A DNA stretch of 64,000 bases from Lachnospiraceae bacterium (GTDB lineage: Bacteria > Bacillota > Clostridia > Lachnospirales > Lachnospiraceae), in assembly GCA_017442585.1 (NCBI GenBank), contig JAFRZM010000053.1, positions 27,012 to 91,011 on the forward strand, written 5' to 3'. Below are positions 9,224 through 24,993 of the stretch, piece by piece. The notes under the pieces were generated by a model. It did not search any database. It was given only the letters and a program-made list of their open reading frames with translations, and had not been told where the DNA came from. A program made the position numbers and the translations under genes. Every line of letters starts with the position of its first letter. The stretch's first letter is position 1.

Positions 9224-9265
9224 TTTAAAATAATATTTTCATAAGAGTAATCTTAAGGAGTACAT

Positions 9266-11060: not shown

Positions 11061-11141
11061 GTTTACCCGATGCAACATTTTTAAAACCGCATCTGTATTA
11101 TTTGCAGAAGGGCGATAAGCCAGGTTTAAGGAGGAAACTTT

Positions 11142-12089: not shown

Positions 12090-12110
12090 TTCTTTAAAGT
12101 TAGGAACAAT

Positions 12111-12773
12111 ATGGAAATCGTATACGAAGACGAATATCTTTATGTCATAAGAAAAGAAGCCGGAGAACCGGTGGAAACAAGAAGTATCGGAACAAAGGAC
12201 ATAGTTACGATGCTTAAGAACATAAGGGTTAAGAAAAAAGAGAATCCATATATCGGGGTCATCAACAGGCTGGATCAGCCTGTTGAGGGCCTTCTTTTAG
12301 TGGCAAAAGATAATAAGACGGCAGCAATGCTGTCGGAAGAATTAAAGAAACATGCCATAGATAAGCATTACTATGTGGTTTGTTACGGAATTCCTTCGGG
12401 AAACGAATACAGAGATTTTATAGATTTCGATAAGAAAAGTAATCTTTCTTTTGTAACGGATGGAAAATCCGGCAAAGAATCTTTGCTGGAGTTTAAAGTT
12501 ATTAAGACCTTTGAAGTTAATGAAGAAAAGGTTTCCTTGGTTGATATTAATCTTTTAACCGGTCGTCATCATCAGATAAGGGTTCAGTTCGCGAGTCACG
12601 GACATCCCCTTTTAGGTGACAGAAAATACGGTAACAAGGAAGGAAGCGACGCGAAAAATGTGGCGCTTTGTTCATATGAATTATCTTTTATACATCCCTA
12701 TAAAAATGAGCCTTTATGCTTTAAAATCAAGCCTTCCGGCAAAGCCTTTATGCCTTGCGAATATTCCTTTTAG
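12111..12773 (+). CDS. RluA-family pseudouridine synthase
   Basis: NRLDQPVEG catalytic motif, TGRHHQIRVQ, GDRKYG. Confidence 0.93.
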   Translation: MEIVYEDEYLYVIRKEAGEPVETRSIGTKDIVTMLKNIRVKKKENPYIGVINRLDQPVEGLLLVAKDNKTAAMLSEELKKHAIDKHYYVVCYGIPSGNEYRDFIDFDKKSNLSFVTDGKSGKESLLEFKVIKTFEVNEEKVSLVDINLLTGRHHQIRVQFASHGHPLLGDRKYGNKEGSDAKNVALCSYELSFIHPYKNEPLCFKIKPSGKAFMPCEYSF

Positions 12774-12824
12774 GTGTTAGAATAATATAGATTATTTGTA
12801 TGCCTTTAAGCAGGAGTAATTGTT

Positions 12825-14009
12825 ATGCAAAATAAGGGTAAGTCGACTATTAGAACCAAGGCGGGAACGCGTGCATTAGAGCGTCTTGCCATGGAAAATG
12901 TCAGAAGAGATTTCTTTTCTGCGTTGGGTTCTTTGGTTGTGTATTCTATATTATTTATACGATATTTATTCGCGGAGCTTTTTCCTATTAAGAACACTAT
13001 AGTTCTTGCGATAATGGTCGTGTATGTGGTAATGGATGTATGCTTTGCCGTAATTTCATATAAGAAAGTCGTAAGTCGCGATTCTTCAAGGAGCGGAGAA
13101 CTCAACAGGGTATTCTGGATTTCGAGATATGGTTTGGCTCTTATTTTCTCGCTTTATGCAAGCTCGAAGACGGGTGCGACACTTCTTATCTTAATGATAA
13201 TGCTGTCGTTTGCGCTTGTACCGCTTTTTGAACTAAAAGAAATCGTGGTTGCAACGGCATTGCAAGTTATAATGCTCGTGCTTCATTTCGCAATAAACAT
13301 GATCGATGCGGAGCGCTTTGTGACGGGGATTATCATACTTACGCTTTGTACGGTTATTTCAAGACAGGCGTATTATGCGGCACTTCGTCGTGAAATGGAT
13401 GCCGGCGAGATAAGTGACGTTAAAAATCTTGCTGATACAGATCCGATGACGGGATTACTTAATAGACGTGGTTTAGAGCGCAGAATTATGCAGCTTTGGC
13501 CTATGTGCATAAGAGAGAAGTTATCGGTTGCGGTAATGATGATCGACATCGATAATTTCAAGAAATATAACGATACGTTCGGACACCCCGAGGGCGACGA
13601 GTGTATCAAGATGATAGCGAAGTGTTTGAAGGAAAATATAAGACGTCGTACGGATTATATAGCTCGTGTCGGCGGCGAGGAATTCTTGATTGTTTTGACG
13701 GACGTAACAAGACAGGGTGCGATTGACGTGGCAACAGCTTGCAAGACGTCTGTGGAAGAGGCAAGACGACCCCATTCGAAGGACAATTTCCTTCCGTACG
13801 TAAGTATAAGTACGGGATTAAGCTTTGCATCGCCTGTAGTCCCCGGCAAGGAGTTTTGGGAATTGAGAAATGATGCGGATAAGCAGTTGTATACTGCCAA
13901 AGAAAACGGCAAGGCCTGCGTATATATTGAAGGCGAGTGCTTTGCAAAGACGGAACCTTTAAGATTTAACAGGCAGTATGAGAAAGAAAGATTGTTCCAT
14001 CAGATTTAA
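12825..14009 (+). CDS. Membrane-bound diguanylate cyclase
   Basis: Multiple TM helices, DPMTGLLNRR, DIDNFKKYNDTFGH, GGEEF active site with an RxxD I-site (RRTD). Confidence 0.92.
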   Translation: MQNKGKSTIRTKAGTRALERLAMENVRRDFFSALGSLVVYSILFIRYLFAELFPIKNTIVLAIMVVYVVMDVCFAVISYKKVVSRDSSRSGELNRVFWISRYGLALIFSLYASSKTGATLLILMIMLSFALVPLFELKEIVVATALQVIMLVLHFAINMIDAERFVTGIIILTLCTVISRQAYYAALRREMDAGEISDVKNLADTDPMTGLLNRRGLERRIMQLWPMCIREKLSVAVMMIDIDNFKKYNDTFGHPEGDECIKMIAKCLKENIRRRTDYIARVGGEEFLIVLTDVTRQGAIDVATACKTSVEEARRPHSKDNFLPYVSISTGLSFASPVVPGKEFWELRNDADKQLYTAKENGKACVYIEGECFAKTEPLRFNRQYEKERLFHQI

Positions 14010-14042
14010 GGATGAATATTATAAGTAAAGGATGAGATAGAT

Positions 14043-15482
14043 ATGGCAAGAGATAAGAAAATGGTAGAATCGATCACATCTATGGATGTCGATTTTGCGC
14101 AGTGGTACACAGACGTTGTAAAGAATGCTGAATTAACGGATTATACAAGCGTTAAGGGTTGTATGGTAATTAAGCCTTACGGTTACGCAATCTGGGAGAA
14201 CATCCAGCATGAACTTGATAAGAGATTTAAAGAAACAGGCGTAGAAAATGTTTACATGCCGATGTTTATACCTGAGTCACTTCTTCAGAAGGAAAAAGAT
14301 CACGTTGAAGGATTCGCTCCTGAAGTTGCGTGGGTTACACATGGTGGGCTTGAACCGTTGCAGGAGCGTCTTTGCGTACGCCCTACATCAGAGACTTTAT
14401 TCTGTGATTTTTATAAAGATGCAATTCAGTCATACAGAGACCTCCCAAAGGTTTATAACCAGTGGTGCTCAGTTGTAAGATGGGAGAAGACAACACGTCC
14501 TTTCCTTCGTTCAAGAGAGTTCTTATGGCAGGAAGGCCATACGGCACATGCAACAGCAGAGGATGCTGAAGCAAGAACAGTTCAGATGCTTAATGTATAT
14601 GCTGACTTTGTTGAAGAGTTTTTGGCAATCCCGGTAATCAAGGGTAGAAAGACAGATAAAGAAAAGTTTGCCGGAGCAGAGGCAACTTATACTATAGAAG
14701 CTATGATGCATGACGGTAAGGCATTGCAGTCAGGTACAAGCCATAACTTCGGTGACGGCTTCGCTAAGGCATTCGGTATCCAGTTTACAGATAAGGACAA
14801 TCAGCTCCACTATGTAAACCAGACATCTTGGGGATTATCAACAAGACTTATCGGTGCAATCATCATGGTTCATGGTGATGATGAAGGTCTGGTTCTCCCG
14901 CCTTACGTTGCTCCGACACAGGTTATGGTTATTCCGATAAGACAGGATAGCGAAGGCGTTCTTGATAAGGCTAATGGAATTAAGGATGCGTTAAAGGCAG
15001 CAGGTCTTCGCGTGAAGATTGATGATTCCGAGAAGAGTCCCGGATGGAAGTTCTCCGATCAGGAAATGCGCGGTATTCCGGTACGTATCGAAATCGGGCC
15101 GAAGGATATCGAGAACGGTACATGTATCGTTGCTCGCCGTGATACACACGAGAAGCAGACTGTTGCGATCGATGAATTGGTAAATGTAATTCCTGGACTT
15201 TTGGATGCAATCCAGCATGATATGTTTGAGCGTGCAAAAGCACACAGAGATTCAAGCATGTATGAAGCTACGGATTACGAAGAGTTCAAGAAGACTATAG
15301 ATGAGAAGCCTGGATTCGTACGCGCTATGTGGTGCGGCGATGAGGCTTGCGAAATCAAGATTAAAGAAGATACGACAGCAACAAGCCGTTGCATGCCGTT
15401 TGATGCAAAGAATATCTCCGATAAGTGCGTATGCTGCGGTAAACCGGCTAAGCACTTGGTAATCTGGGGTAAGGCATATTAA
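14043..15482 (+). CDS. proS: Proline--tRNA ligase (archaeal/eukaryote-like short type)
   Basis: [27 protein letters not shown], cysteine-rich C-terminus ending GKAY; no INS editing domain. Confidence 0.97.
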
Positions 15483-15500
15483 AATAATGATTTTTAAAAG

Positions 15501-15535
15501 AGCAGGATTGGAAAATCAATCCTGCTTTTGTTTTT
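15501..15535 (+). terminator. Rho-independent terminator after proS
   Basis: AGCAGGATTG/CAATCCTGCT 10-bp stem followed by a T-rich tract. Confidence 0.88.
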
Positions 15536-15663
15536 CAATTAGTCTCGGTGGATGAAATGATTCCCGTGACACTCGGAAGTAACGAAGCCGTTTACTTTGG
15601 GTAATTGGGTGTGATATCATAAAAATGATGACGTGATAAATTGGGAGGTGTGGAGAATATAAA

Positions 15664-16041
15664 ATGGGATTCTGGATTTTTATGATGATAATGGAATTAC
15701 TTATTCCGATTATTATGGTTGCATTTGGAAAAGTTTTTATGAAAAGACCGCCGAGCACAATTAATTTTGCTTATGGTTATCGGACTAAACGTTCGATGAA
15801 GAATATGGATACGTGGATTTTTGCACATAAGTATTTTGGTAAGATATGGTATATCAGCGGTTTGGTATTACTCCCCGTCTCGGTAATTCCAATGATTCTT
15901 GTAGTGGGGAAAGAACCTGGGATTGTCGGTAGTGTTGGAGGAATCGTTAATTTCGTGCAGTTGATTTTGCTTATTGGAGCGATAATTCCAACAGAGTATG
16001 CTTTATCAAAAAGGTTTGATTGTGAGGGTAATGCTCGATAA
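15664..16041 (+). CDS. SdpI/YhfL-family membrane (immunity-like) protein
   Basis: Hydrophobic 125 aa with IN..YGYRT..SM....W motif. Confidence 0.8.
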   Translation: MGFWIFMMIMELLIPIIMVAFGKVFMKRPPSTINFAYGYRTKRSMKNMDTWIFAHKYFGKIWYISGLVLLPVSVIPMILVVGKEPGIVGSVGGIVNFVQLILLIGAIIPTEYALSKRFDCEGNAR

Positions 16042-16090
16042 TTTTGAGTTTGTGAAGACGGGCGCTTTTGCCTGGGAAGGTTGTTTAAAT

Positions 16091-16579
16091 ATGGAATTAG
16101 TTAGGGTAAGCAGAGAAAATGTGGATGCGATAGCGCCTCTAGTGGCATTATTTAGAATGCAGTTAAAGTTATATAAAGGGATTAAATCTGAGCCGGATAA
16201 TGAAGCAGGAAAGGAAGAGTTGCTTGAGTTTCTGGATTCGGATTTTCCGGTTTATGCCGTAAAAGATAATGGCGTTTTTGCTGGATACATAGTATGTAGG
16301 ATTGATGAGCCATGTTTGTGGGTTGAGCATATTTTTGTAAAGGAAGAGTATCGAAGAAGAGGTGTCGCGACGTTGCTTTTTAATAAGGCGGAAGAAATTG
16401 CGGCTTCTATGGGAGAAGATACCGTATATAATTTTGTTCATCCGAATAATGAAAATATGATTCAATTCCTTCGCACAAAGGGTTATACCGTTTTGAATAT
16501 GCTGGAAATTAGAAAACCTTACGAGGGCGAAAAACTGATGACGACCATTCGCGTTGAGAATGAGATTTTTGATTATTAA
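16091..16579 (+). CDS. GNAT acetyltransferase
   Basis: IFVKEEYRRRGVA acetyl-CoA loop; start placed at ATG 16091 after GGAAGG. Confidence 0.85.
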   Translation: MELVRVSRENVDAIAPLVALFRMQLKLYKGIKSEPDNEAGKEELLEFLDSDFPVYAVKDNGVFAGYIVCRIDEPCLWVEHIFVKEEYRRRGVATLLFNKAEEIAASMGEDTVYNFVHPNNENMIQFLRTKGYTVLNMLEIRKPYEGEKLMTTIRVENEIFDY

Positions 16580-16818
16580 CGTTGGAACATAGTGAGTTTA
16601 TGGTCGAGAAGTGTGGACAGGAAAAAGTTCAGAGAAATGCAGAGTTTAGACTATTTTCCCGAGGTCGGGAAATTGGTAGAGCGTGTTGAAATGAACGCAA
16701 GAATCGCCATATGCATATATGGCGGGGAAAAACGACACATTGAACAGCACTTTGCACAGCACATTGAATAAGAAAATACTATTTTTTATAAGAGATATAA
16801 CTATATAGGGAGACAGTA

Positions 16819-17403
16819 TTGATGGAACTTGCTTTGGATGAGATTATTCTTCGTGATTATCGACTTTCTGATGTAGAAGATGAAGTCCGGTGGACAAATG
16901 TAGACACTGCGTGGTTTTGTACGACTACCCCTTGGATGGAAATGACGCCGGTGGATCCACAAGAGCTACGTGCAGATATGGCAGAAGTTATTTCTGAAAT
17001 GACGGAAGATAAGATACGGATGCGCTTTGAAATAGAGGTGGTGGGGCGTCATATAGGAACAATGTCATCTTATTATCTGAGCGAAGACTTTGAGTCAATG
17101 CCATATGAAAAGATTGATTACAGTAAGAACGCGGAAGAAAATCACGCAGTTCGTGCGCTTGGAATCGAGATATGCGAGATGGATTATTGGGGAAAAGGAC
17201 TTGGCGCAAAGGCATTGACCTGTGTTATGGATTATTATCGTGATTTCGGTGAGCATCGCTTTATCCTAGAAACGTGGACAGGGAATACACGGATGCTCGG
17301 CTGTGCAAAAAAGTTAGGCTTTAAAGAAGTGCTGCGCAGAAAAGATGCATATACGGTCAACGGTAAGCAGTATGATGAGGTTGTGCTTGAAAAAGTGAGC
17401 TAA
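16819..17403 (+). CDS. GNAT acetyltransferase (RimJ/RimL-like)
   Basis: GIEICEMDYWGKGLG, ETWTGNTRM, KKLGF motifs. Confidence 0.85.
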   Translation: MMELALDEIILRDYRLSDVEDEVRWTNVDTAWFCTTTPWMEMTPVDPQELRADMAEVISEMTEDKIRMRFEIEVVGRHIGTMSSYYLSEDFESMPYEKIDYSKNAEENHAVRALGIEICEMDYWGKGLGAKALTCVMDYYRDFGEHRFILETWTGNTRMLGCAKKLGFKEVLRRKDAYTVNGKQYDEVVLEKVS

Positions 17404-17445
17404 TAAGTTTGTAAATGTGATTGTGTTAACTGAGGAATATTAAAT

Positions 17446-17979
17446 ATGGAAAACATGAAATTTATAGAACCCACATTTGAATATGCGGAGCAGGTGCGCG
17501 CATATAGACAGGAACTCTTGGATGCAGGCAGTTCCATGGATGGCACGGGAGCACTTAGGCGTATGGAAGACCCTAAAGAGTGGATTGAGTACTGCATTAA
17601 GGGTAAGAAAAAGGATACACAGCCGGAAGGAAGAGTTCCTGCAACGCAGTATATTTTCGTTCGCGAAAGCGACAATAAAATAGTCGGAATGCTTCAGATA
17701 AGGCATTACCTTAACGAGTTTTTGGAAAAGTATGCCGGCCATATAGGATATTCCGTTGCGCCGAGCGAACGCCGTAAAGGTTATGCCACAAAAATGCTCG
17801 AGATCGGCTTAACGAAATGTAAAGACCTGGGGATTCATAAAGTACTTATATCCTGCATCGACGATAACGTAGGTAGTAGAAGGACAATCCTTAAGAATGG
17901 CGGAGTATATGAATCCACAGTTTACGAACCCGGCGAAGGCGTAAACTTAGAAAGATATTGGATAGATTTACAAGATTGA
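17446..17979 (+). CDS. GNAT acetyltransferase
   Basis: GHIGYSVAPSERRKGYA, NVGSRRTILKNGG, ERYWI. Confidence 0.88.
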   Translation: MENMKFIEPTFEYAEQVRAYRQELLDAGSSMDGTGALRRMEDPKEWIEYCIKGKKKDTQPEGRVPATQYIFVRESDNKIVGMLQIRHYLNEFLEKYAGHIGYSVAPSERRKGYATKMLEIGLTKCKDLGIHKVLISCIDDNVGSRRTILKNGGVYESTVYEPGEGVNLERYWIDLQD

Positions 17980-18046
17980 GTTAAGAGAATCACCTTGTTC
18001 GTGCTTGCAGTGAGTAATATAGCAATTGTATAAAGGGGGTATCGAA

Positions 18047-18718
18047 ATGGATATTGATAAGATTAGAGCGGAAGTAGCAGAAAAATTCGTAAATGAGTTC
18101 ACGTGTGAGAAAATTAAGGAAGACGAGTATTCTTCGTTTTCATATCCGAAGTTAATAAAGATGATGAAATTTGATACGATAAGGCATAAAGTAGAAGGCT
18201 TCGGTCATATTATGAGCATGCGTACCAAAGGCCCTTTCGGGATGAGACTCCTTACAATGTCGTTTATGCCGTATGAAGGCGGAAACGTGCCGTATCTTCT
18301 TATCGATATGATGACAGTAGGCAAGAAGATAACCGTATTCGTAGAGTATTACGACTGTACGGAGGAAAAAGCCCCTAAAGATGAACTTTTAAGAATTAAA
18401 GAAAGATACGATCATCTTACGGAATACGATGAAAAGCCAAAGTGGTACGTACCGATGCGCACACCGTATTCCTTGATAAAGTGTGGCGTAAAAGAAGAAG
18501 GGAAGAGCTTTTGCGATATGATATGTGATTCCGTCGATGCATACATAAAAGAGATAAAAGCGTCGGGATTAAGCGATACTAACATCCCGGGCCTTTCAGC
18601 ATTTAGAGACAGAATGATAAACGAAGGCAATCCGTCTTCAAGCATATTGGAAAAAGTCTTCGGCAAAGAAGGTGCAGAGAAGTTTTTCAAAGAGTGCGTA
18701 ATGCCGCTTAAGAAATAG
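18047..18718 (+). CDS. Hypothetical protein resembling the ferredoxin-dependent bilin reductase / red chlorophyll catabolite reductase fold
   Basis: By-eye match to PcyA/PebA-type motifs: FMP....VPYLLIDMM, W....TPYSLI, C-terminal NPSSSILEKVFGKEGAEKFFKECVMP; ATG 18047 after GGGGG SD. Confidence 0.6.
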   Translation: MDIDKIRAEVAEKFVNEFTCEKIKEDEYSSFSYPKLIKMMKFDTIRHKVEGFGHIMSMRTKGPFGMRLLTMSFMPYEGGNVPYLLIDMMTVGKKITVFVEYYDCTEEKAPKDELLRIKERYDHLTEYDEKPKWYVPMRTPYSLIKCGVKEEGKSFCDMICDSVDAYIKEIKASGLSDTNIPGLSAFRDRMINEGNPSSSILEKVFGKEGAEKFFKECVMPLKK

Positions 18719-18828
18719 AACATAAGAACATAAGGGTAACTGTATGAATTAATGGACTGACCTTGAGTTAGGCTTAGGATGTAGCGTGATTAAGGCTATT
18801 TGATTATTTTGAATCGGAGGTGGCTTTT

Positions 18829-19095
18829 ATGATGTTAGATCCAAGGTCTTATGTCGATGAGTTCAGGAAGGCGTCATTTGAGAAATTAGTAAAGGAACGC
18901 GAGAGACTTTACAAGGAAATTAAGGCTATTGAGAGTGTGGCATTCGAAAAGGAACGTACGAGCAATGCGTGGCTTGTCTGCCCCGGCCCTGATGTAAAGT
19001 ACCAGGTGTATTTGCAGTATTTGGCAGCACTAAGCGAGTTCATGGCTGAGAAGTATAGACAGGAAAAAGTTTGGGGAGAAGGTGAGTTGAAATGA
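18829..19095 (+). CDS. Small hypothetical protein, translationally coupled to the downstream hydrolase
   Basis: GGAGG SD before ATG 18829; stop overlaps the next ATG (ATGA). Confidence 0.75.
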   Translation: MMLDPRSYVDEFRKASFEKLVKERERLYKEIKAIESVAFEKERTSNAWLVCPGPDVKYQVYLQYLAALSEFMAEKYRQEKVWGEGELK

Positions 19096-19877
19096 TTGGA
19101 GCTATTCTTGGCGATATGGTTGGTAGCCCATATGAATTTGATAGGGGTGCGAAGGTAAAAGATTTTGGCCCATTATTTATAAAAGAATCAACGTACACAG
19201 ATGATTCCGTAATGACAATTGCAGTTGCCGAAGCATTGATGAATGTGAGTCGTGGCGCAGATGATGAAACAATTAAAAACGAAGTTATCAAATCAATGAG
19301 AGCTTGGGGAAGAAAATATCCCAATGCAGGTTATGGCGGAAAGTTCCGCCAATGGCTTTCGCGGGAAGGCTATGGCCCATACGGTAGCTGGGGCAACGGA
19401 TCGGCTATGAGAGTTTCTGCTGTAGGCTGGTTATATGATTCGTTGGAGCGCACGCGCGAAGTCGCAAGATTTACCGCGGAAGTAACGCATAATCATCCGG
19501 AAGGAATTAAGGGAGCAGAAGCTACAGCATCTGCAATATATATGGCACGTACCGGTAAGTCAAAGAAAGAGATTAAGGATTATATCGTTTCGGAATTTGG
19601 TTATAATCTTTCAAGAACCTTAGACGAAATCCGCCCGAACTATCATCATGTCGAAAGCTGTCAGGAAACAGTCCCCGAAGCAATTACAGCATTCTTAGAG
19701 GGCAATGATTTTGAAGACGTCGTAAGAAACGCAGTATCACTCGGTGGCGACTGCGATACGCTTACCTGCATCGCAGCTTCGATAGCGGAAGGCTTCTATG
19801 GCGTACCGGAGGAGTACCGGAAGGAAGTTTTAAATAGACTTGAAGATGATATGATTGCGGTATTGAAGAAGCTGTGA
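19092..19877 (+). CDS. ADP-ribosylglycohydrolase (DraG/ARH family)
   Basis: GAILGD, YTDDSVM, GNGSAMR, THNHP, GGDCDT metal-binding motifs. Confidence 0.93.
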   Translation: MIGAILGDMVGSPYEFDRGAKVKDFGPLFIKESTYTDDSVMTIAVAEALMNVSRGADDETIKNEVIKSMRAWGRKYPNAGYGGKFRQWLSREGYGPYGSWGNGSAMRVSAVGWLYDSLERTREVARFTAEVTHNHPEGIKGAEATASAIYMARTGKSKKEIKDYIVSEFGYNLSRTLDEIRPNYHHVESCQETVPEAITAFLEGNDFEDVVRNAVSLGGDCDTLTCIAASIAEGFYGVPEEYRKEVLNRLEDDMIAVLKKL

Positions 19878-20014
19878 GGGACGGCCGAAATGTCTGCAGA
19901 GAAAAAATGCGGATAGCCGCAAATTTTTAATGAAAAGATTGCTTTAAAAATTGGATATAACTTGTTTACAGGGTTGCGGTATGTGGGCGTTTGGTAAAAA
20001 ATGAGCGGGAGTTA

Positions 20015-20101
20015 TGTCATTAATAACATATTTTGATGCAATATGTTATTAATGACAATTTTGTTTGAATTTACGGGATAATATGTTATACTTAACATAT
20101 T
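20015..20101. promoter_or_regulatory. Operator array and promoter of the XRE-ATPase-TOPRIM operon
   Basis: Perfect 18-bp inverted repeat (20015-20032/20040-20057) and a 9-bp inverted repeat (20080-20088/20093-20101) share the half-site AATATGTTA; extended -10 TGtTATACT at 20084-20092. Confidence 0.75.
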
Positions 20102-20114
20102 GGAGGCGATAAAT

Positions 20115-20432
20115 ATGAGTGCTAATAAGATTGATAAAATATTTGAGCAGATAGATAAATTAAATAAACCTAATTCAGAGCAAGAAGCTTTACCGGCCGC
20201 TAAAACAAATGGTATATCGCGTAGTGTTCTAAACGAGATTTCGTCGGAAATACAAAGAATATTGGATGAAAACGGTTTTACGCAAGAGGATTTGTGTAGA
20301 ATAACGGGTATGTCACAATCTAATATAAGTAAGATACTTAACGGCAAAGTGGCGCCAAGGATAGATACATTACAAAAGATAGCGGAATCAACACATACAA
20401 AATTAGTGATAAGTTTTGAAAGTAATGATTAA
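20115..20432 (+). CDS. XRE-family HTH transcriptional regulator
   Basis: FTQEDLCRITGMSQSNISKILNG..PRIDTLQKIA; GGAGG SD before ATG 20115. Confidence 0.92.
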   Translation: MSANKIDKIFEQIDKLNKPNSEQEALPAAKTNGISRSVLNEISSEIQRILDENGFTQEDLCRITGMSQSNISKILNGKVAPRIDTLQKIAESTHTKLVISFESND

Positions 20433-20443
20433 GGGGATTAAAT

Positions 20444-21568
20444 ATGGCACATATTAATTCAATAGAAATAAAAAGTTACAGAGGAATAAAAGCATTATCA
20501 GTTTCAGATTTTTCAAATATTAATATAGTTGTGGGAGACAACAATAGTGGAAAAACCTCTTTTCTAGAGGCCATTCAATTATTGTTTGCCGGTACTCAAC
20601 TGGGAACTTTGAAAAATATTATAAATCAACGAACTGTACTTAATCCTGACAAGAGTAGTTTTTATGTTTCGCTCACAAAAATGTTCAACAAGGAGCAAAG
20701 ACCGGATTCGATGGACTTTGAGATTTCTGCAGAAAGTAATAGTGGAATCCTACAGTTTCGTTTTATGGGGCGAGAAGGCAGTGTTTCGGGTGAAGAAGCA
20801 CTTCAAATGTCTGCTTTATCTCAGCGAGAAAAAATGCAGTATAAAAGGAATTCGATTATATTGCCGGAAAAGGCAAAAGTATTTATAGGGAATGTAGTCG
20901 CACAAACTGGAGAAGAAATTTCACAGCAGGAAGTAAGAAGTACATCTTTAGATAGTGGGCTTCCGGGGGCTTCTTTAAAGAAGGAAATTCTGTATATTTC
21001 GGCATTTGGACATCTTAGATATGATCTTTTACAGAATATTGTAGGTAATCCGGAATATAAAAAGCTGGCAGTTGATATTCTTGGACAATTTGAAACAGAA
21101 ATAGAGGATATATGTTATACCAAGGCAGATGATGGCTCTTATTTAGAAACGATTGTAGCTACGAGTGGGATAAATATGCCGCTTTCGGTATATGGCGATG
21201 GTATTAAGAAGATTTTGTATATACTTAATAAGCTTTTTGATTCCGCAGATTCAATACTGCTGATTGATGAAATTGAGACGGGGCTCCATAAGAAATATTA
21301 TGATATGTTGTTCCCTGTAATATTTGCTTTAGCTAGTAAGTTGAATGTTCAATTGTTTATTGCAACACATAGTATTGAGGCGATAGATGCTATACTTAAA
21401 TACGGAGATTACGACAATAAGAAAGAAGAGAAGGATCCGATTAAAGTCATTACATTAAAGAAAATTGAATCAAAAACCGGTAAAGGAAGCAACATAGTTG
21501 CTAGAAACGTTACAGGTAATTATGTATACGAAAATAGAAAAGTGTTTGAATATGAGGTGCGTCTATGA
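20444..21568 (+). CDS. ABC/SMC-like ATPase (AAA_15/AAA_21 type)
   Basis: Walker A GDNNSGKTS, signature LSVYGDG, Walker B ILLIDEIETGLH, H-loop IATHS. Confidence 0.9.
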   Translation: MAHINSIEIKSYRGIKALSVSDFSNINIVVGDNNSGKTSFLEAIQLLFAGTQLGTLKNIINQRTVLNPDKSSFYVSLTKMFNKEQRPDSMDFEISAESNSGILQFRFMGREGSVSGEEALQMSALSQREKMQYKRNSIILPEKAKVFIGNVVAQTGEEISQQEVRSTSLDSGLPGASLKKEILYISAFGHLRYDLLQNIVGNPEYKKLAVDILGQFETEIEDICYTKADDGSYLETIVATSGINMPLSVYGDGIKKILYILNKLFDSADSILLIDEIETGLHKKYYDMLFPVIFALASKLNVQLFIATHSIEAIDAILKYGDYDNKKEEKDPIKVITLKKIESKTGKGSNIVARNVTGNYVYENRKVFEYEVRL

Positions 21569-22302
21569 TTGAATTAGTACTTGTAGAAGGCGTATCAGAT
21601 GTTCAGCTGATAAGTTACTATATGCAGAGCGTATATGAGTGGAAGCATGTTAATGAAAATATACTTGGAATAACGGTATTGGATGCGCATGAACATATAG
21701 AAAATTTAACAAAAGGTGATAATGAACTTGTGTTATGCGGTGTTGGAGGAAATAGTAAATTTGCGTCGTTTGTGGAAAAACACCGTATAAATGCAATGAT
21801 TATTGAAAAAGAAATAGCATCATTTATGGTTGTGACGGATAGAGATAAAGAAAGCAATCTAAAGATGACAAGAAGAATTAATGCAGTATTTGAAAATATA
21901 ACATTCGAAGCAGGAAAATGGGTGAAAAATAAGATAGCGGATGGCTATGGCCAGGATAAGTTGGTTAATACTTACTTGCTAATTATCCCAGAAAATGAAA
22001 ATGGTGCATTGGAAAGTGTAATCATTAATGCATTGAAGGATATACCGGAAGAAAAAGAACTTATGCAAGAGGTAATTGACTTTATAGATAATGTAAAGAA
22101 TGATTTGGTTCCGGAATTATGTAAAATTAATAAATATAATAAGGCTGTTGTTGGAACGTTTTTCAGCGTTAGAAATCCGGAAAATGCAATGCGTTCTTTT
22201 GGAGCTTTCGTATCAAAGGTAGAGTGGTTAAAGTCGGAGTCACTTAAACAGATTTTTATGCCGCTCGGCTGTTTGGGTAAGGAAAAAACGATTAATAATT
22301 AA
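21565..22302 (+). CDS. TOPRIM-like (DUF3226/DUF4435-like) putative nuclease
   Basis: N-terminal LVEGVSD, DxD motif VVTDRD, later IIP...GALE; ATGA-coupled to the ATPase. Confidence 0.7.
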   Translation: MIELVLVEGVSDVQLISYYMQSVYEWKHVNENILGITVLDAHEHIENLTKGDNELVLCGVGGNSKFASFVEKHRINAMIIEKEIASFMVVTDRDKESNLKMTRRINAVFENITFEAGKWVKNKIADGYGQDKLVNTYLLIIPENENGALESVIINALKDIPEEKELMQEVIDFIDNVKNDLVPELCKINKYNKAVVGTFFSVRNPENAMRSFGAFVSKVEWLKSESLKQIFMPLGCLGKEKTINN

Positions 22303-22441
22303 ATTTAAGGAAGGATTGCGCTTACTTAGTCGATAGTGCGACGGTTTTTCTCTGGCCGACTTGTTTTGAGAAGTTTTGATCGAAGGATTCTTCTAGAGAT
22401 TAAATGAAAAACTAAACGCAAGGTAAGGGCTTTTGTTCTTA

Positions 22442-22518
22442 AATCGGTAGTGGTTTTTATGATGCTAGATATGAGGTTTATGTTAATGAGTTTATGAAGG
22501 CGTCGCTCGAGAAGTTTA
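22442..22518 (+). pseudogene. Degenerate copy of the RBS and 5' end of the 18829..19095 gene
   Basis: Hand alignment with 18812-18888 gives about 60 of 77 identical positions with one gap. Confidence 0.7.
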
Positions 22519-22578
22519 CAGGATATTTAAGAAGATACGGGGATAAAAACTATATTATTAAGTCTAGGAGAATTTAAA

Positions 22579-23742
22579 ATGCTTGAAAACGAAGTTGTCA
22601 AGACAAATAATAGTGTTGCAAATATGACGGAAGAGTTTTTAATGGATGTCAGAAAGGAGCTAATCCCGACGGAAAGAGCTATAAGCCTTCCGTTTGCAGA
22701 GATTGGATCACTTGGCACTGCAATGGCAGCATTTGCTCCGGCAGTAGAAGTGTTATCAAAAATAAATGATGGAAAACTTTATAGAATAACTAATGCCAAG
22801 AAGGGATTCGAACTGGCAAAAGCTAAAGGAGGAGGAAACTGGCCTTCGCTTAGAAAGGGTAATGAGAAAATTCTTGCAAAGCTTGAAGAGGCAGATATTT
22901 CTGATGCGGCATCTTGTATAGATCCGGCAATGATTATGATAGCAGTGGCTTTGTATGATATAAATAAAAATCTCGATGAGATTAAGAGCACGACTAAGCA
23001 AATCTTGTCATTTTTGCAAATTGAGAAAGAGTCTCAGATTGAGGCTGATGTGATTACTCTTGATGACATCGTTAGTAAGTATAAGGATAATTGGAATAAT
23101 GAACTTTGGATGTCAAGCAATCATCAATTAGTGTGCGATATTAAGCGTGAAGCTCGAAAGAATATATTATCATATCAACGTGAAACTGAAGAGTTGATGA
23201 AAGATAAGAAAATTCTAGTATTGCAAGGTCATACAAATTCAATACTTAATGATTTGCTTAATAAATATAGATATTATCGACTTTCACTTTACATTTTTTC
23301 GCTAGCATCAATGTCAGAGATTATGCTTGAAGGTAGATTTACGGAAGAAAGTATTGAAGCGGCTATTAGTGAAATAAGAAAGTACTCTAATGAGTATAGA
23401 GAACTCTTTGGTAAAAGTTCGGAATTTTTGGAGGAAAGGTCGGGAGAAGCTTTGGAAGCTTATGCATATAAAGGTGTTGGAATAGCTGCAAATGCCATGG
23501 GTAAGCTTGTTCAGAAGATTCCGAATATGAATGGCGAGAAAATTGGTGACTCGCTTCAGGAAAAAGGAAAGCAGATTCAGAAGTTTGCTGAAGACGGAAA
23601 CAGGAAGATTGTCGAGGCTTTCGCAGAAGCGGGAGACCCTAAAACAAGAGTACTTTTGAATGAAATGGAAAACTTAATGCAGATATATAATGGGACAACA
23701 GAAATATGTATGGACAATAAAGGGTTTTATTTGATAGCATAA
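22579..23742 (+). CDS. Conserved-looking hypothetical protein (helical, 387 aa)
   Basis: Long ORF with SD AGGAG; hydrophobic segments (IDPAMIMIAVAL) followed by a heptad-rich region. Confidence 0.8.
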   Translation: MLENEVVKTNNSVANMTEEFLMDVRKELIPTERAISLPFAEIGSLGTAMAAFAPAVEVLSKINDGKLYRITNAKKGFELAKAKGGGNWPSLRKGNEKILAKLEEADISDAASCIDPAMIMIAVALYDINKNLDEIKSTTKQILSFLQIEKESQIEADVITLDDIVSKYKDNWNNELWMSSNHQLVCDIKREARKNILSYQRETEELMKDKKILVLQGHTNSILNDLLNKYRYYRLSLYIFSLASMSEIMLEGRFTEESIEAAISEIRKYSNEYRELFGKSSEFLEERSGEALEAYAYKGVGIAANAMGKLVQKIPNMNGEKIGDSLQEKGKQIQKFAEDGNRKIVEAFAEAGDPKTRVLLNEMENLMQIYNGTTEICMDNKGFYLIA

Positions 23743-23785
23743 AGGTAGAATTCGAGATTAAGCGTTATTAGGAGGGAATGTTAAA

Positions 23786-24016
23786 ATGAATGAAAAATTG
23801 GATGCGCTAGTTTTAGTAAAAAACGCGGTGACGAATTGGGTTCAAATAACAACGCATGGTTCTAGATATACATGCGAGACCAAAATGCTTGATGGAGTAG
23901 AATGCTTTAAATTTAAAAACAGATGGCATAGTGTAAATGATTATGTGGGACCAAATACTGAGGAACTGATTGAAGAAAATGGCAAGCTAATATCAAGATT
24001 GTTTAAAAAGAAATAG
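23786..24016 (+). CDS. Hypothetical protein
   Basis: 76-aa ORF with AGGAGG SD; no recognisable motif. Confidence 0.7.
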   Translation: MNEKLDALVLVKNAVTNWVQITTHGSRYTCETKMLDGVECFKFKNRWHSVNDYVGPNTEELIEENGKLISRLFKKK

Positions 24017-24168
24017 TATATGCTGGTATCACTATTACTTGCAATTTCTATGTTTATTATGCGTACTGACTCCATTTTTGAAGGAGTAAAGGGAATTACA
24101 GGTAGTATAATGGTTTTTACTAAAGTAAAAGGGAAAAGTTAGTTATACGGAATACGGAGAATGTTATT

Positions 24169-24687
24169 ATGCCAAAGGTATCCACAAAAGAAAACAAAAA
24201 TGCATATTTTTTACGACGTGAGGAACTGAAGCTTACCCGTGATCAGGCGAGCGAGCTCTTGGAATCAATTCCACCGGAGCGTATTGAAAAGATTGAAAAT
24301 GAACGTTTGGAGCCGCATCCGGAAGAAGTATTAATTATGGCGGATAAGTATAAGGCACCGGAACTATGTAACTATTATTGTTCGACGCAGTGCCCGATTG
24401 GCTTACAGTATGTGCCGGAAGTCAAAATACATGACTTATCTCAGATTATATTAAAGATGGTTGATTCTTTAAACTGTGTGCAGGAAAAGAAAAATAGGCT
24501 TATTAATATAACTGCTGATGGAGTGGTAAGTGATGATGAGATTGATGACTTCGTAGATATACAGGATGAACTTGAGAAGATTTCTATTTCTGTAGAGGCA
24601 TTACAGTTATGGTCGGAGCAGATGCTTGCGGATGGTGTAATTAATCAAGAGAAGTATGAGGATAGACGCAAAGAAAAGAATATGTAA
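24169..24687 (+). CDS. XRE-type HTH regulator with C-terminal helical domain
   Basis: REELKLTRDQASE...ERIEKIENE, LCNYYC..CPIG, ITADGVVSDDE. Confidence 0.8.
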   Translation: MPKVSTKENKNAYFLRREELKLTRDQASELLESIPPERIEKIENERLEPHPEEVLIMADKYKAPELCNYYCSTQCPIGLQYVPEVKIHDLSQIILKMVDSLNCVQEKKNRLINITADGVVSDDEIDDFVDIQDELEKISISVEALQLWSEQMLADGVINQEKYEDRRKEKNM

Positions 24688-24993
24688 GGTGTGGTATACG
24701 AGCGCTTTTTCACTATTTAGGAAGAGCACTTTTTTATTTTGCTAAAATCGGAGAGATAACAAAGGATAGTTGCTGATGTAATCATGTTGTTTATGAATGA
24801 AAGGGATTATTATTAAAGCATAAAGAACAAGGAATACATTATAAAACGAATCCGAAAACGAATAGAACAAAAATCCACGAAGTGTGGACACAGAAGAGGG
24901 AATTCAAATATATAATGTAGACAAGTTCTAAGAGAAGGAGGTTAAACTTAGCAACAGTTGTTTTAAGAAAACTATTTAATGGAGGAACAGACT

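What the first reader, a model, noticed from the sequence alone, without database searches (positions are those of the whole stretch)
18047..18718. Ferredoxin-dependent bilin reductase / RCCR-like protein in a non-photosynthetic anaerobe
Seen: LLTMSFMP....VPYLLIDMM, W....TPYSLI and NPSSSILEKVFGKEGAEKFFKECVMP line up by eye with PcyA/PebA motifs (LHCVMFP...LPLFGCDIV, W...FS.YCLF, ND.TR.VLEKAFG..WAE.Y...VLFD). The D105-equivalent Asp appears retained; the H88 position is Thr, and the C-terminal ND appears as GN. Established: FDBRs and RCC reductase reduce linear tetrapyrroles using ferredoxin in phototrophs and phages. The gut bilirubin reductase BilR belongs to a different (old yellow enzyme) family. 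Inference: a possible ferredoxin-linked reductase or binding protein for bilins or plant chlorophyll catabolites in a gut or rumen organism, i.e. possibly undescribed anaerobic tetrapyrrole chemistry.
Basis: partly seen in the sequence, partly recalled or inferred. Interest (0 to 1): 0.7.

Follow-up and report, generated by a model that had tools for sequence, protein, structure and literature searches.

The report
Bilin-reductase-fold enzyme in rumen Clostridia
A rumen anaerobe with no way to open haem rings encodes a well-conserved, unannotated protein with the fold of the pigment-making bilin reductases of plants and cyanobacteria; across its family the gene is tied to dedicated iron-sulfur and flavin electron carriers and other reductases, which points to undescribed oxygen-free reduction of a pigment-like molecule in herbivore guts.

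Summary
Window 18047-18718 (+) is a real 223-aa gene with a Shine-Dalgarno site. Its AlphaFold model (pLDDT 95.9) matches only FDBRs and RCCR at the top of the PDB (TM 0.78-0.80). A profile-profile comparison with PcyA, HY2, PebA and PebB gives 89% probability.

- D87 aligns with PcyA D105 and is invariant in 82 sequences.
- T70 sits at the H88 position.
- N195 replaces the second catalytic Asp.

New findings:
- The family has about 100 species-level members, mostly ruminant-gut Clostridia and Erysipelotrichaceae.
- In 36 of 81 loci the gene lies next to a flavodoxin-2x[4Fe-4S] fusion, a flavoredoxin-like protein, an NmrA-type reductase, a DUF1295 membrane reductase or a TetR.
- The window copy is unlinked, but this genome carries that TetR operon on another contig, plus a second paralog.
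- The genome has no haem oxygenase and no HutW/ChuW.

Best reading (about 50%): a low-potential-electron-dependent C=C reductase for an imported tetrapyrrole-like substrate, working as an accessory to that operon. The substrate is unproven. I found the family in no paper, though earlier notes of this scan describe the same operon. I rate it a new variant of a known kind, interest 0.6.

The parts
18047..18718 (+). CDS of the 223-aa FDBR-fold protein (type 1 of the Firmicute family), stop codon included
   Evidence: ORF list, translation, AF2 pLDDT 95.9, Foldseek top hits PebA, PebB, HY2, PcyA, PebS and RCCR, hhalign probability 89%
18033..18039 (+). Shine-Dalgarno AAGGGGG, 7 nt before ATG 18047; it argues against the upstream TTG 18026 as the start
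   Evidence: Sequence; homologs start at the aligned Met
18305..18307 (+). Codon of D87, the equivalent of the central catalytic Asp (PcyA/PebS D105, PebA D84)
   Evidence: Alignments; invariant in 82 of 82 sequences
18254..18256 (+). Codon of T70, at the position of PcyA His88 and the HY2 catalytic Asp; Thr in 76 and Ser in 6 of 82
18629..18631 (+). Codon of N195 in the invariant G-N-P motif, at the position of the second catalytic Asp of PebA, PebB and HY2 ('DP') and of PcyA D220
   Evidence: N in 74 of 82, G in the 8 second copies
18479..18481 (+). Codon of K145, aligned with the Arg conserved in the four canonical FDBRs compared (PcyA R149); candidate carboxylate (propionate) ligand
   Evidence: Alignment; invariant in 82 of 82. 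The propionate role of R149 is recalled from the PcyA structure literature, not tested here.
18344..18352 (+). Codons of E100-Y101-Y102 in the family signature strand VFVEYYDC; E100 aligns with the Asp of the FDBR 'D-x-Q-P' strand
   Evidence: E100 and Y102 invariant in 82 of 82
15664..19877 (+). Co-directional gene run that holds the gene (SdpI-like, three GNATs, the FDBR-fold gene, a 91-aa orphan, ADP-ribosylglycohydrolase), bounded by terminator-like hairpins at 15498-15529 and 19908-19921. No promoter of its own was detected for the gene. The neighbours are functionally unrelated.
   Evidence: This neighbourhood is not shared even by the 83%-identical homolog L028.

Best explanation

Shown:
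- The fold, the homology and the retained central Asp (D87).
- An invariant set of polar residues: E100, Y102, K145, W133, Y134.
- Absence of the classical second proton donors.
- Absence of haem oxygenase and of HutW/ChuW in the genome.
- Family-wide genetic linkage and co-occurrence with a flavodoxin-2x[4Fe-4S] fusion protein, a flavoredoxin-like FMN protein, an NmrA-type NAD(P) reductase, a DUF1295 (steroid-5-alpha-reductase-like) membrane reductase, a 200-aa membrane protein and a TetR repressor.

Inferred:
- The protein binds a tetrapyrrole-like substrate carrying carboxylates. The substrate is not made by the cell but imported from the gut, for example a bile-pigment or chlorophyll breakdown product. 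It would sit between the beta-sheet and the C-terminal helices.
- The protein takes single electrons from the dedicated Fe-S or flavin carriers. In this genome that would be the flavoredoxin-like protein of the contig-C12 operon, or general ferredoxin.
- It then reduces one C=C bond, with D87 as proton donor.
- It works as an optional extra step of the TetR-controlled multi-reductase module, often together with a second ('GG'-type) paralog, which this genome also carries on contig C40.
For: Fold and homology:
- AF2 pLDDT 95.9.
- Foldseek ranks 1-46 are all FDBR or FDBR-derived chains or RCCR.
- hhalign probability 89%, E 2.2e-6.
- Transitive Pfam hits up to 55 bits in distant relatives.
- PebB E 2.2e-5 with relative P0252.

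Active-site conservation: D87, E100, Y102 and K145 are invariant in 82 sequences from about 80 species.

Electron donors and partner reductases:
- 36 of 81 loci have redox partners within 3.5 kb: Fld-2x[4Fe-4S] in 21 (gaps of 8-13 nt in 13 of them), Flavin_Reduct-like in 13, NmrA/NAD_binding_10 in 25, DUF1295 in 11, TetR in 10.
- The Fld-Fd and Flavin_Reduct-like proteins are fused into one 576-579-aa protein in L037-L040.
- Gene order varies but the association persists, and linked and solo loci are interleaved on the tree.

This genome: a TetR-FlavRed-SDR-DUF1295-membrane operon on contig C12, 49-59% identical to the linked versions (TetR 32%).

Co-occurrence: the FlavRed gene is present in 32 of 43 genomes whose FDBR-fold gene is solo, against 9 of 300 background genera (odds ratio 94, p 1e-27, not corrected for phylogeny).

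Partner fold: the flavin partner folds as an FMN-binding split barrel of the flavoredoxin/flavin-reductase type.

Type-2 paralogs sit at the 3' end of the same operon in other Clostridia.

No endogenous source of linear tetrapyrrole: no PF01126 haem oxygenase hit; best HutW hit 161 bits against a cut-off of 400.

Habitat: gut, sheep and bovine metagenomes; 53 of 80 genome titles carry ruminant labels.
Against: - No biochemical data exist for any member.
- The second proton donor used by every characterised FDBR is absent (PcyA H88 and E76; PebA, PebB, PebS and HY2 second Asp). This family has T70, M58 and N195 instead.
- The window copy has no redox gene beside it and no recognisable promoter of its own.
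- It lacks the ATGAACACGTTCAT operator found in front of the C12 operon, so co-regulation is not shown.
- This genome has no homolog of the Fld-Fd fusion.
- The window protein has Met at position 137, where 70 of 82 relatives have Glu.
- Eight of ten module-bearing genera have no FDBR-fold gene at all, so the module works without it.
- The other module enzymes (DUF1295, NmrA-type) more often act on lipids, sterols, quinones or phenylpropanoids. The closest solved relatives of the NmrA-type partner are NDUFA9, SimC7 and triphenylmethane reductase, not BLVRB or ChuY.
- Many type-2 relatives carry an N-terminal membrane anchor that would place the domain outside the cell, out of reach of ferredoxin.
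- No expression evidence: the 'RNA' runs behave like DNA.
Confidence: 0.5

Rival explanations
1. It is a non-catalytic ligand-binding protein. An FDBR-fold scaffold would capture, buffer or hand over a tetrapyrrole-like or other hydrophobic molecule to the membrane reductases of the module, without reducing it itself.
For: - The classical second proton donors are missing.
- The gene is optional for the module: 8 of 10 module-bearing genera lack it.
- Many type-2 relatives have a signal-anchor that would put the domain outside the cell, where no ferredoxin is available, and one is fused to a metallophosphoesterase.
- Pre-3 variants of pre-PcyA can bind cyclic tetrapyrroles, which shows the pocket is plastic (PMC13446030, abstract).
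Against: - The central catalytic Asp and several further polar residues are strictly invariant over about 80 species.
- In 21 loci the nearest neighbour is an Fe-S/flavodoxin electron carrier, often 8-13 nt away. A mere carrier would have little use for it.
Confidence: 0.2
2. It is a reductase, or a subunit of one, for a substrate that is not a tetrapyrrole. Candidates are conjugated lipophilic compounds of plant feed: an isoprenoid or phytol-derived compound, a carotenoid, a sterol, a quinone, a phenylpropanoid or a conjugated fatty acid. The FDBR fold would have been re-used.
For: - The partner enzymes belong to families that act on such substrates: DUF1295/Steroid_dh, NmrA/NAD_binding_10 and 3Beta_HSD hits.
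- The closest solved relatives of the NmrA-type partner are NDUFA9, the SimC7 ketoreductase and triphenylmethane reductase.
- The operon has a TetR and membrane proteins, as is typical of responses to hydrophobic xenobiotics.
- The genome has no tetrapyrrole-opening enzyme.
Against: - Every enzyme among the significant structural matches (the FDBRs, RCCR and, weakly, coproporphyrinogen oxidase) acts on tetrapyrroles (PMC10151467).
- The basic residue aligned with the propionate-binding Arg is invariant (K145).
Confidence: 0.25
3. It is an ordinary FDBR that makes a phytobilin from biliverdin for a photoreceptor or antenna protein.
For: Fold and central Asp only.
Against: - The genome has no haem oxygenase.
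- The Pfam score is far below the family cut-off.
- His88, Glu76 and the second Asp are absent.
- The host is a rumen anaerobe living in the dark.
- The partners are reductases and electron carriers, not bilin-binding proteins.
Confidence: 0.03
4. The similarity is chance, or the ORF is not a gene.
For: The single-sequence Pfam, NCBIfam and PDB searches are insignificant.
Against: - 167 homologs at E <= 1e-3, with 42% mean column identity.
- A confident AF2 model.
- Foldseek E 1.6e-11 and hhalign E 2.2e-6.
- A Shine-Dalgarno site.
Confidence: 0.01

Closest known systems
Ferredoxin-dependent bilin reductases PebA, PebB, HY2, PcyA, PebS (Pfam PF05996; PDB 2x9o, 6qx6, 6kmd, 2g18/2d1e, 2vck)
   Same: - The same alpha/beta/alpha sandwich over the whole length (TM 0.78-0.80).
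- Collinear profile alignment.
- The central catalytic Asp is conserved (D87).
- A basic residue sits at the PcyA R149 position (K145).
- The C-terminal helix motif ...LEKxFG... is conserved.
- In many relatives an Fe-S electron carrier is encoded next door.
   Different: - 10-15% identity, below the Pfam cut-off.
- His88/Glu76 and the second Asp are replaced by Thr, Met and Asn.
- No haem oxygenase, no bilin-binding acceptor protein, non-photosynthetic obligate gut anaerobes.
- The putative donors are a flavodoxin-2x[4Fe-4S] fusion and a flavoredoxin-like protein rather than plant-type [2Fe-2S] ferredoxin.
- The gene is embedded in, or co-occurs with, a TetR-controlled operon of other reductases.
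Red chlorophyll catabolite reductase (RCCR/ACD2; PDB 2zxl, 3aga)
   Same: Same superfamily fold (Foldseek E about 4e-9). RCCR acts on a diet-relevant linear tetrapyrrole, and the family's herbivore-gut habitat makes chlorophyll catabolites plausible substrates.
   Different: - Lower structural similarity than to FDBRs (TM 0.62-0.71).
- No PAO-type oxygenase is expected in an anaerobe (not searched for here).
- A structure-based census of prokaryotic RCCR homologs reports no RCCR-type genomes (those with a complete set of chlorophyll-catabolic enzyme homologs including RCCR) in Bacillota (bioRxiv 10.64898/2026.03.19.712979).
Pre-PcyA proteins (pre-1, pre-2, pre-3) of heterotrophic bacteria (Rockwell et al. 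2023, PMC10151467; Frascogna et al. 2026, PMC13446030)
   Same: FDBR-superfamily proteins in non-photosynthetic bacteria, encoded in clusters with an Fe-S protein, with non-canonical catalytic residues.
   Different: - Pre-PcyAs are recognisable FDBRs that reduce biliverdin. They sit with bilin-binding globins and V4R proteins in Chloroflexi, Proteobacteria, Acidobacteria, Planctomycetes and Myxococcales.
- Neither 'Firmicutes' nor 'Clostridi' occurs in the text of that paper.
- The present family has different partners and no biliverdin source.
Gut bilirubin reductases BilR and BilV (Old Yellow Enzyme family; PMC10769871, PMC13252198, bioRxiv 10.64898/2026.06.10.731317)
   Same: Anaerobic gut Firmicutes reducing C=C bonds of a host-derived linear tetrapyrrole. 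That pathway has an acknowledged gap: no enzyme is known for urobilinogen to stercobilinogen.
   Different: An unrelated fold (TIM-barrel OYE with flavodoxin-like and NAD(P)H domains). No evidence here that the FDBR-fold protein acts on bilirubin or urobilinoids.
TetR / flavin-reductase-like / NmrA / DUF1295 / membrane-protein operon of gut Clostridia
   Same: This genome carries the operon on contig C12. In 36 of 81 relatives the FDBR-fold gene lies inside or beside it, or beside its Fld-Fd variant.
   Different: In this window the FDBR-fold gene is physically separate, lacks the operon's operator and sits among unrelated genes.

Membership tests
FDBR (ferredoxin-dependent bilin reductase, PF05996) | Alpha/beta/alpha sandwich fold of PcyA, PebA and HY2 over the full length | tested here: met
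   AF2 pLDDT 95.9; Foldseek TM 0.78-0.80, E 1.6e-11 to 1e-7 to PebA, PebB, HY2, PcyA and PebS
FDBR (ferredoxin-dependent bilin reductase, PF05996) | Score above the curated Pfam or NCBIfam cut-off | tested here: not met
   PF05996 12.8 bits against 31; PebA equivalog 14.7 bits against 263. Homology is supported only by profile-profile comparison and by transitive links.
FDBR (ferredoxin-dependent bilin reductase, PF05996) | Central catalytic Asp on the beta-sheet (PcyA/PebS D105, PebA D84) | tested here: met
   D87 aligned; invariant in 82 of 82
FDBR (ferredoxin-dependent bilin reductase, PF05996) | Second proton donor: His88 plus Glu76 (PcyA), or the C-terminal-helix Asp (PebA D205, PebS D206, PebB and HY2 'DP' Asp), or the HY2 Asp at the His88 position | tested here: not met
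   T70, M58 and N195 at these positions. Residue roles are recalled from the FDBR literature.
FDBR (ferredoxin-dependent bilin reductase, PF05996) | Basic residue that binds a propionate (PcyA R149; Arg in all four canonical sequences aligned) | tested here: met
   K145 aligned, invariant; a conservative Arg-to-Lys change
FDBR (ferredoxin-dependent bilin reductase, PF05996) | Electrons taken from ferredoxin, no bound cofactor | not testable with these tools
   Indirect only: a Fld-2x[4Fe-4S] fusion gene lies within about 1 kb in 21 of 81 loci, 8-13 nt downstream in 13 of them. None is present in this genome.
FDBR (ferredoxin-dependent bilin reductase, PF05996) | Biliverdin supply (haem oxygenase) in the same organism | tested here: not met
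   No PF01126 match at E <= 1 in the 92%-complete genome; no bona fide HutW/ChuW either
RCCR (red chlorophyll catabolite reductase) | RCCR-type structure closer than FDBR-type | tested here: not met
   RCCR chains score TM 0.62-0.71, below the FDBRs at 0.78-0.80
RCCR (red chlorophyll catabolite reductase) | Partner pheophorbide a oxygenase (Rieske/PAO) that provides RCC | not tested
   Not searched for. It needs oxygen and is not expected in a rumen anaerobe. No such gene lies among the neighbours.
Firmicute TetR-flavoredoxin-like-NmrA-DUF1295 reductase module (undescribed) | FDBR-fold gene inside or adjacent to the module | tested here: not met
   The window neighbours are GNATs, an orphan and an ADP-ribosylglycohydrolase; no partner lies within 6 kb
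Firmicute TetR-flavoredoxin-like-NmrA-DUF1295 reductase module (undescribed) | Module present in the same genome | tested here: met
   Contig C12, about 8426-12202: TetR, FlavRed (59% identical), SDR (57%), DUF1295 (51%), membrane protein (49%)
Firmicute TetR-flavoredoxin-like-NmrA-DUF1295 reductase module (undescribed) | Shared TetR operator upstream of the FDBR-fold gene | tested here: not met
   ATGAACACGTTCAT lies after the -10 of the C12 operon. No shared 8-mer or palindrome was found in window 17901-18050.

The most novel reading that the evidence does not exclude
Herbivore- and other gut Firmicutes run an oxygen-independent, haem-oxygenase-independent pathway that hydrogenates imported linear tetrapyrroles. 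Substrates would be chlorophyll-derived phyllobilins from forage or bile-derived urobilinoids, for instance the still unassigned urobilinogen-to-stercobilinogen step. At its centre would be an FDBR-derived enzyme pair (the N195-type protein of this window plus a 'GG'-type paralog). The pair would be fed by dedicated flavodoxin-[4Fe-4S] and flavoredoxin-like carriers and assisted by NmrA-type and DUF1295 ene-reductases under a pigment-sensing TetR.
Probability: 0.25. Interest if true: 0.85.

Novelty: new variant of a known kind. Interest (0 to 1): 0.6.

Why it matters
FDBRs are known as pigment-making enzymes of phototrophs, their phages and, since 2023, some aerobic heterotrophs. They always act downstream of an oxygen-dependent haem oxygenase.

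A conserved FDBR-fold family in obligately anaerobic rumen and gut Firmicutes, with its own Fe-S and flavin electron carriers and no ring-opening enzyme, would extend this radical-type reductase chemistry to anaerobic catabolism or detoxification of dietary or bile pigments.

Two poorly understood processes become testable:
- The fate of chlorophyll-derived linear tetrapyrroles in herbivore guts.
- The missing late steps of bile-pigment reduction. The enzyme for urobilinogen to stercobilinogen is unknown (bioRxiv 10.64898/2026.06.10.731317).

Two genomes whose titles carry no MAG label, so presumably cultured isolates, carry linked versions of the cluster: Ruminococcus sp. YE71 and Lachnospiraceae bacterium LC2019. 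That makes experiments feasible. If the substrate is not a tetrapyrrole, the family would be the first FDBR-fold protein with a different substrate class.

Tried and rejected
1. Single-sequence searches (Pfam, NCBIfam, PDB phmmer) and a family-profile hmmsearch against PDB gave nothing significant. Only profile-profile and structure comparison worked.
2. Three first neighbourhood look-ups showed no conserved context and suggested an orphan gene. The 81-locus clustering overturned this.
3. Shared regulation with the C12 operon: no common operator or k-mer upstream of the window gene, and no promoter or terminator of its own.
4. Expression: runs labelled RNA (X9, X13) hold contigs of tens of kb and look like DNA, so they give no transcription evidence.
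5. The downstream 91-aa ORF is not related to the small ORFs downstream of homolog P0006.
6. The idea that the flavin-reductase-like partner is a HugZ/ChuZ-type haem degrader or carries a PCP_red domain is not supported. Its fold matches flavoredoxin and flavin reductases, and Pfam shows only weak Flavin_Reduct and DUF447_N hits.
7. The idea that the NmrA-type partner is BLVRB- or ChuY-like is not supported by sequence search of the PDB.
8. The idea that an FDBR-fold protein (either type) is a universal part of the module was rejected: 8 of 10 module-bearing genera have none.
10. Pocket-level analysis of the model was not possible, because the tools do not give out coordinates.
11. Literature searches for bilin reductases in anaerobic bacteria or Lachnospiraceae, and for the operon, found nothing.
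Full report
**1. The observation**

The window holds one long ORF at 18026..18718 on the + strand. The biological start is ATG 18047. AAGGGGG at 18033-18039 lies 7 nt upstream, and all homologs begin at the aligned Met.

It has no signal peptide or membrane segment. Its N-terminus is a hydrophilic helix, so it is cytoplasmic.

**2. Is the resemblance to bilin reductases real?**

Single-sequence searches are not significant:
- Pfam Fe_bilin_red gives E 0.096 (12.8 bits, cut-off 31), although the match is collinear over residues 41-216.
- The NCBIfam PebA equivalog gives E 0.019.
- The PDB sequence search finds nothing.

The protein nevertheless belongs to a well-populated family. There are 167 proteins at E <= 1e-3 in the 90% clusters, all unnamed or 'hypothetical', and 210 representative clusters at 50% identity.

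Four lines of evidence support homology to FDBRs:
- Ten of 40 aligned members hit Fe_bilin_red, best E 1.6e-4.
- More distant relatives reach 24-55 bits. One of them (P0252) finds PebB of Guillardia in the PDB at E 2.2e-5.
- The AlphaFold model built on the 40-sequence alignment is very confident: pLDDT 95.9, pTM 0.92. Foldseek against the PDB returns PebA, PebB, HY2, PcyA, PebS, PcyX, FDBR-derived subunits of the plastid Ycf2-FtsHi motor, and RCCR in ranks 1-46. E runs from 1.6e-11 to 3e-3, and TM reaches 0.78-0.80 for the FDBRs. Coproporphyrinogen oxidase, which shares the fold (PMC10151467), follows only at E 0.07.
- A profile-profile comparison of the family with PcyA, HY2, PebA and PebB gives probability 89% and E 2.2e-6 over 171 columns. 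Those four sequences were taken from tool print-outs.

**3. Active-site anatomy**

A MAFFT alignment with bridging sequences and hhalign agree on these equivalences:

| This protein | Canonical position |
|---|---|
| D87 | PcyA D105, the central Asp of PebA and PebB |
| T70 | PcyA H88, which is the catalytic Asp position of HY2 |
| M58 | PcyA E76 |
| E100 | the Asp of the D-x-Q-P strand |
| K145 | PcyA R149, Arg in all four canonical sequences |
| G194-N195-P196 | PcyA N219-D220-K221, the 'DP' Asp of PebA, PebB and HY2 |

PcyA numbering was checked against the printed E76Q and H74Q variant chains.

Conservation over 82 sequences from about 80 species:
- Invariant: G53, P82, D87, E100, Y102, K145 and G194.
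- At least 95% conserved: W133, Y134, S142 and Y166.
- T70 is Thr in 76 and Ser in 6.
- N195 is Asn in 74 and Gly in 8.

So the Asp that FDBRs other than HY2 use is kept, and a basic residue sits where the propionate-binding Arg lies. The second proton donor of every characterised FDBR is missing. The mechanistic roles of these residues are from my recollection of the FDBR literature. The window protein itself departs from the family at position 137, with Met where 70 of 82 have Glu.

**4. Who has it**

- The window's genome is a 1.70-Mb, 92%-complete assembly.
- Near-identical DNA occurs in gut, sheep-gut and bovine-gut metagenomes.
- A scan of one genome per prokaryotic species found 97 species with a relative. 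Of the 80 best, 31 titles name a ruminant organ or host and 22 more carry RUG, Tb.RUG or RUI labels.
- Holders are Lachnospiraceae, Oscillospiraceae, Ruminococcus, Ruminiclostridium, Erysipelotrichaceae (Solobacterium, Bulleidia) and one Atopobiaceae. There are also a horse-faeces MAG and a UMGS-labelled genome (probably human gut).
- Two titles carry no MAG label and are presumably cultured strains: Ruminococcus sp. YE71 and Lachnospiraceae bacterium LC2019.
- Within the window's own family the gene is rare and patchy. Three of 301 genera have it, and 6 of 399 genomes of the class have any match.
- The list is ranked by similarity to a rumen query, so the herbivore bias is suggestive, not proven.

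**5. No source of linear tetrapyrroles in the cell**

The genome has no haem oxygenase (PF01126), no canonical FDBR and no bona fide anaerobic haem-opening HutW/ChuW. The best HutW match is 161 bits against a cut-off of 400, typical of HemN/HemW-like radical-SAM proteins. Any tetrapyrrole substrate would have to be imported.

**6. Genomic context, the main new result**

In the window the gene lies in a co-directional run of unrelated genes: SdpI-like, three GNATs, an orphan and an ADP-ribosylglycohydrolase. It has no promoter or terminator of its own. Three first look-ups of homologs also showed unrelated neighbours.

I then clustered all ORFs of 81 loci and annotated the clusters with Pfam. 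Thirty-six loci have redox partners within 3.5 kb:

| Partner | Size | Loci |
|---|---|---|
| Flavodoxin-like + 2x[4Fe-4S] fusion | 252 aa | 21 (8-13 nt downstream in 13) |
| Flavin_Reduct-like protein | 311 aa | 13 |
| NmrA/NAD_binding_10 reductase | 285 aa | 25 |
| DUF1295/steroid-5-alpha-reductase-like membrane protein | about 263 aa | 11 |
| Membrane protein without Pfam match | 200 aa | 13 |
| TetR | about 176 aa | 10 |

- In L037-L040 the Fld-Fd and Flavin_Reduct-like proteins are fused into one 576-579-aa protein. They therefore belong to one electron path.
- Gene order differs between lineages: SDR-FDBR-FldFd; TetR-FlavRed-FDBR-SDR-DUF1295-membrane; FDBR-SDR-FldFd. Linked and solo loci are interleaved on the protein tree. 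This indicates functional coupling rather than inherited synteny.
- The flavin partner models (pLDDT 71) as an FMN-binding split barrel like flavoredoxin and flavin reductases.
- The closest solved relatives of the NmrA-type partner are NDUFA9, SimC7 and triphenylmethane reductase.

**7. The window copy is unlinked but not alone**

The same genome carries TetR-FlavRed-SDR-DUF1295-membrane as a tight operon on contig C12. Its enzymes and membrane protein are 49-59% identical to the linked versions (TetR 32%), and it has no FDBR-fold gene inside.

- A consensus-like promoter there is followed by the palindrome ATGAACACGTTCAT. This operator is absent upstream of the window gene.
- The genome has no Fld-Fd homolog.
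- Among 43 other genomes whose FDBR-fold gene is solo, 32 encode the FlavRed protein elsewhere. The background is 9 of 300 genera of the window's family. The odds ratio is 94 and p is 1e-27, uncorrected for phylogeny and for the different taxon mix.
- The converse does not hold. Eight of ten module-bearing genera have no FDBR-fold gene of either type.

The FDBR-fold protein is thus an optional addition to a more widespread module. An earlier agent of this scan concluded the same from another genome (e1-5154262), and I re-derived it independently.

**8. A second paralog**

The genome also encodes a divergent 'type 2' protein on contig C40. Its signature is LLSxD...ExY...WY...GG(I/P/V)ST...FFG, with Gly at the N195 position.

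- In other Clostridia the type-2 gene sits at the 3' end of the same operon.
- In 8 of 81 loci a 'GG'-type copy lies in cis with the type-1 gene.
- Many type-2 relatives carry an N-terminal signal-anchor, and one is fused to a metallophosphoesterase.

**9. Interpretation**

Shown: an FDBR-superfamily protein with a conserved putative active site, in a rumen anaerobe without haem-opening enzymes. It is genetically coupled, across its family, to Fe-S and flavin electron carriers and to other reductases under a TetR.

Inferred: it accepts low-potential electrons and reduces a C=C bond of an imported tetrapyrrole-like compound, with D87 as proton donor. It would act as an accessory step of the module. 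I give this about 50%.

The main rivals are a non-catalytic binding or hand-over protein (about 20%) and action on a lipophilic plant compound that is not a tetrapyrrole (about 25%). An ordinary phytobilin synthase and a chance resemblance are practically excluded.

**10. Novelty**

- Rockwell et al. 2023 describe pre-PcyA FDBRs in heterotrophs, but their text does not mention Firmicutes or Clostridia.
- A 2026 structure-based census of prokaryotic chlorophyll-catabolic enzymes reports no RCCR-type genomes (complete sets of such enzymes including an RCCR homolog) in Bacillota.
- The known gut bilirubin reductases BilR and BilV are Old Yellow Enzymes. The enzyme for urobilinogen to stercobilinogen is still unknown.
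- Full-text searches pairing bilin reductases with anaerobic bacteria or Lachnospiraceae, or for the operon's components, found nothing.
- Inside this scan the same operon has been reported from three other genomes. The window therefore adds an unlinked, two-paralog configuration and the family-wide statistics rather than a first sighting.

I rate it a new variant of a known kind, with interest 0.6.

Noticed in passing
own genome, contig C40:69836-70495 (+) (= L015 1462-2151); outside the window: A second, divergent FDBR-fold paralog ('type 2', Gly at the N195 position, C-terminal FFG). Here it lies next to an HTH gene, a membrane protein and a secreted peptidase-like lipoprotein. In other Clostridia the type-2 gene closes the TetR-FlavRed-SDR-DUF1295-membrane operon (L110, L111, L113).
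   Followed up: partly
own genome, contig C12 about 8426-12202 (minus strand); outside the window: A tight TetR / flavoredoxin-like / NmrA-type / DUF1295 / 206-aa membrane-protein operon. It has a consensus-like promoter and the palindrome ATGAACACGTTCAT just after the -10. Its substrate is unknown and I found no paper on it.
   Followed up: partly
L033-L035, L037-L039, L068, L075: Eight of 81 loci carry an N195-type and a G195-type FDBR-fold gene together, in tandem or separated by the SDR gene. This recalls PebA/PebB pairs or a heteromer.
   Followed up: partly
proteins P0207, P0220, P0242, P0252, P0171 (relatives from the representative search): Many type-2 relatives have a basic N-terminus followed by one membrane helix. 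By the positive-inside rule that would place the FDBR-fold domain outside the cell. P0171 (651 aa) fuses the domain to a calcineurin-like metallophosphoesterase.
   Followed up: no
window 15998-17979: Three different GNAT acetyltransferase genes in a row (193, 194 and 177 aa), directly upstream of the FDBR-fold gene. GNAT genes also flank the homolog in L007 and L008.
   Followed up: no
window 18820-19877: A 91-aa orphan ORF without Pfam match. Its stop overlaps (ATGA) the start of an ADP-ribosylglycohydrolase gene at 19092-19877, so the two may be a translationally coupled pair.
   Followed up: no
window 20015-20057: A perfect 18-bp-stem palindrome (TGTCATTAATAACATATT...AATATGTTATTAATGACA) in front of the XRE / ABC-ATPase / DUF3226 genes. 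It could be an operator or a terminator of the AT-rich defence-like island.
   Followed up: no
window 18356-18358 (Cys104): The Cys in the signature strand VFVEYYDC is conserved in 70 of 82 relatives. No role is known; a bilin-type thioether or a redox role cannot be judged without coordinates.
   Followed up: no
sequencing runs X9, X13 laid on window 17446-19877: Runs labelled RNA-Seq hold contigs of up to 56 kb with flat depth across genes and spacers, so they behave like DNA. Sheep-gut samples carry a relative about 95% identical over this stretch (63-66 differences in about 1.3-1.4 kb).
   Followed up: partly
L028 (Lachnospiraceae bacterium Tb.RUG.265) compared with window 12047-24718: The 83%-identical ortholog has no neighbouring gene in common with the window. 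The solo gene changes place between close relatives.
   Followed up: partly
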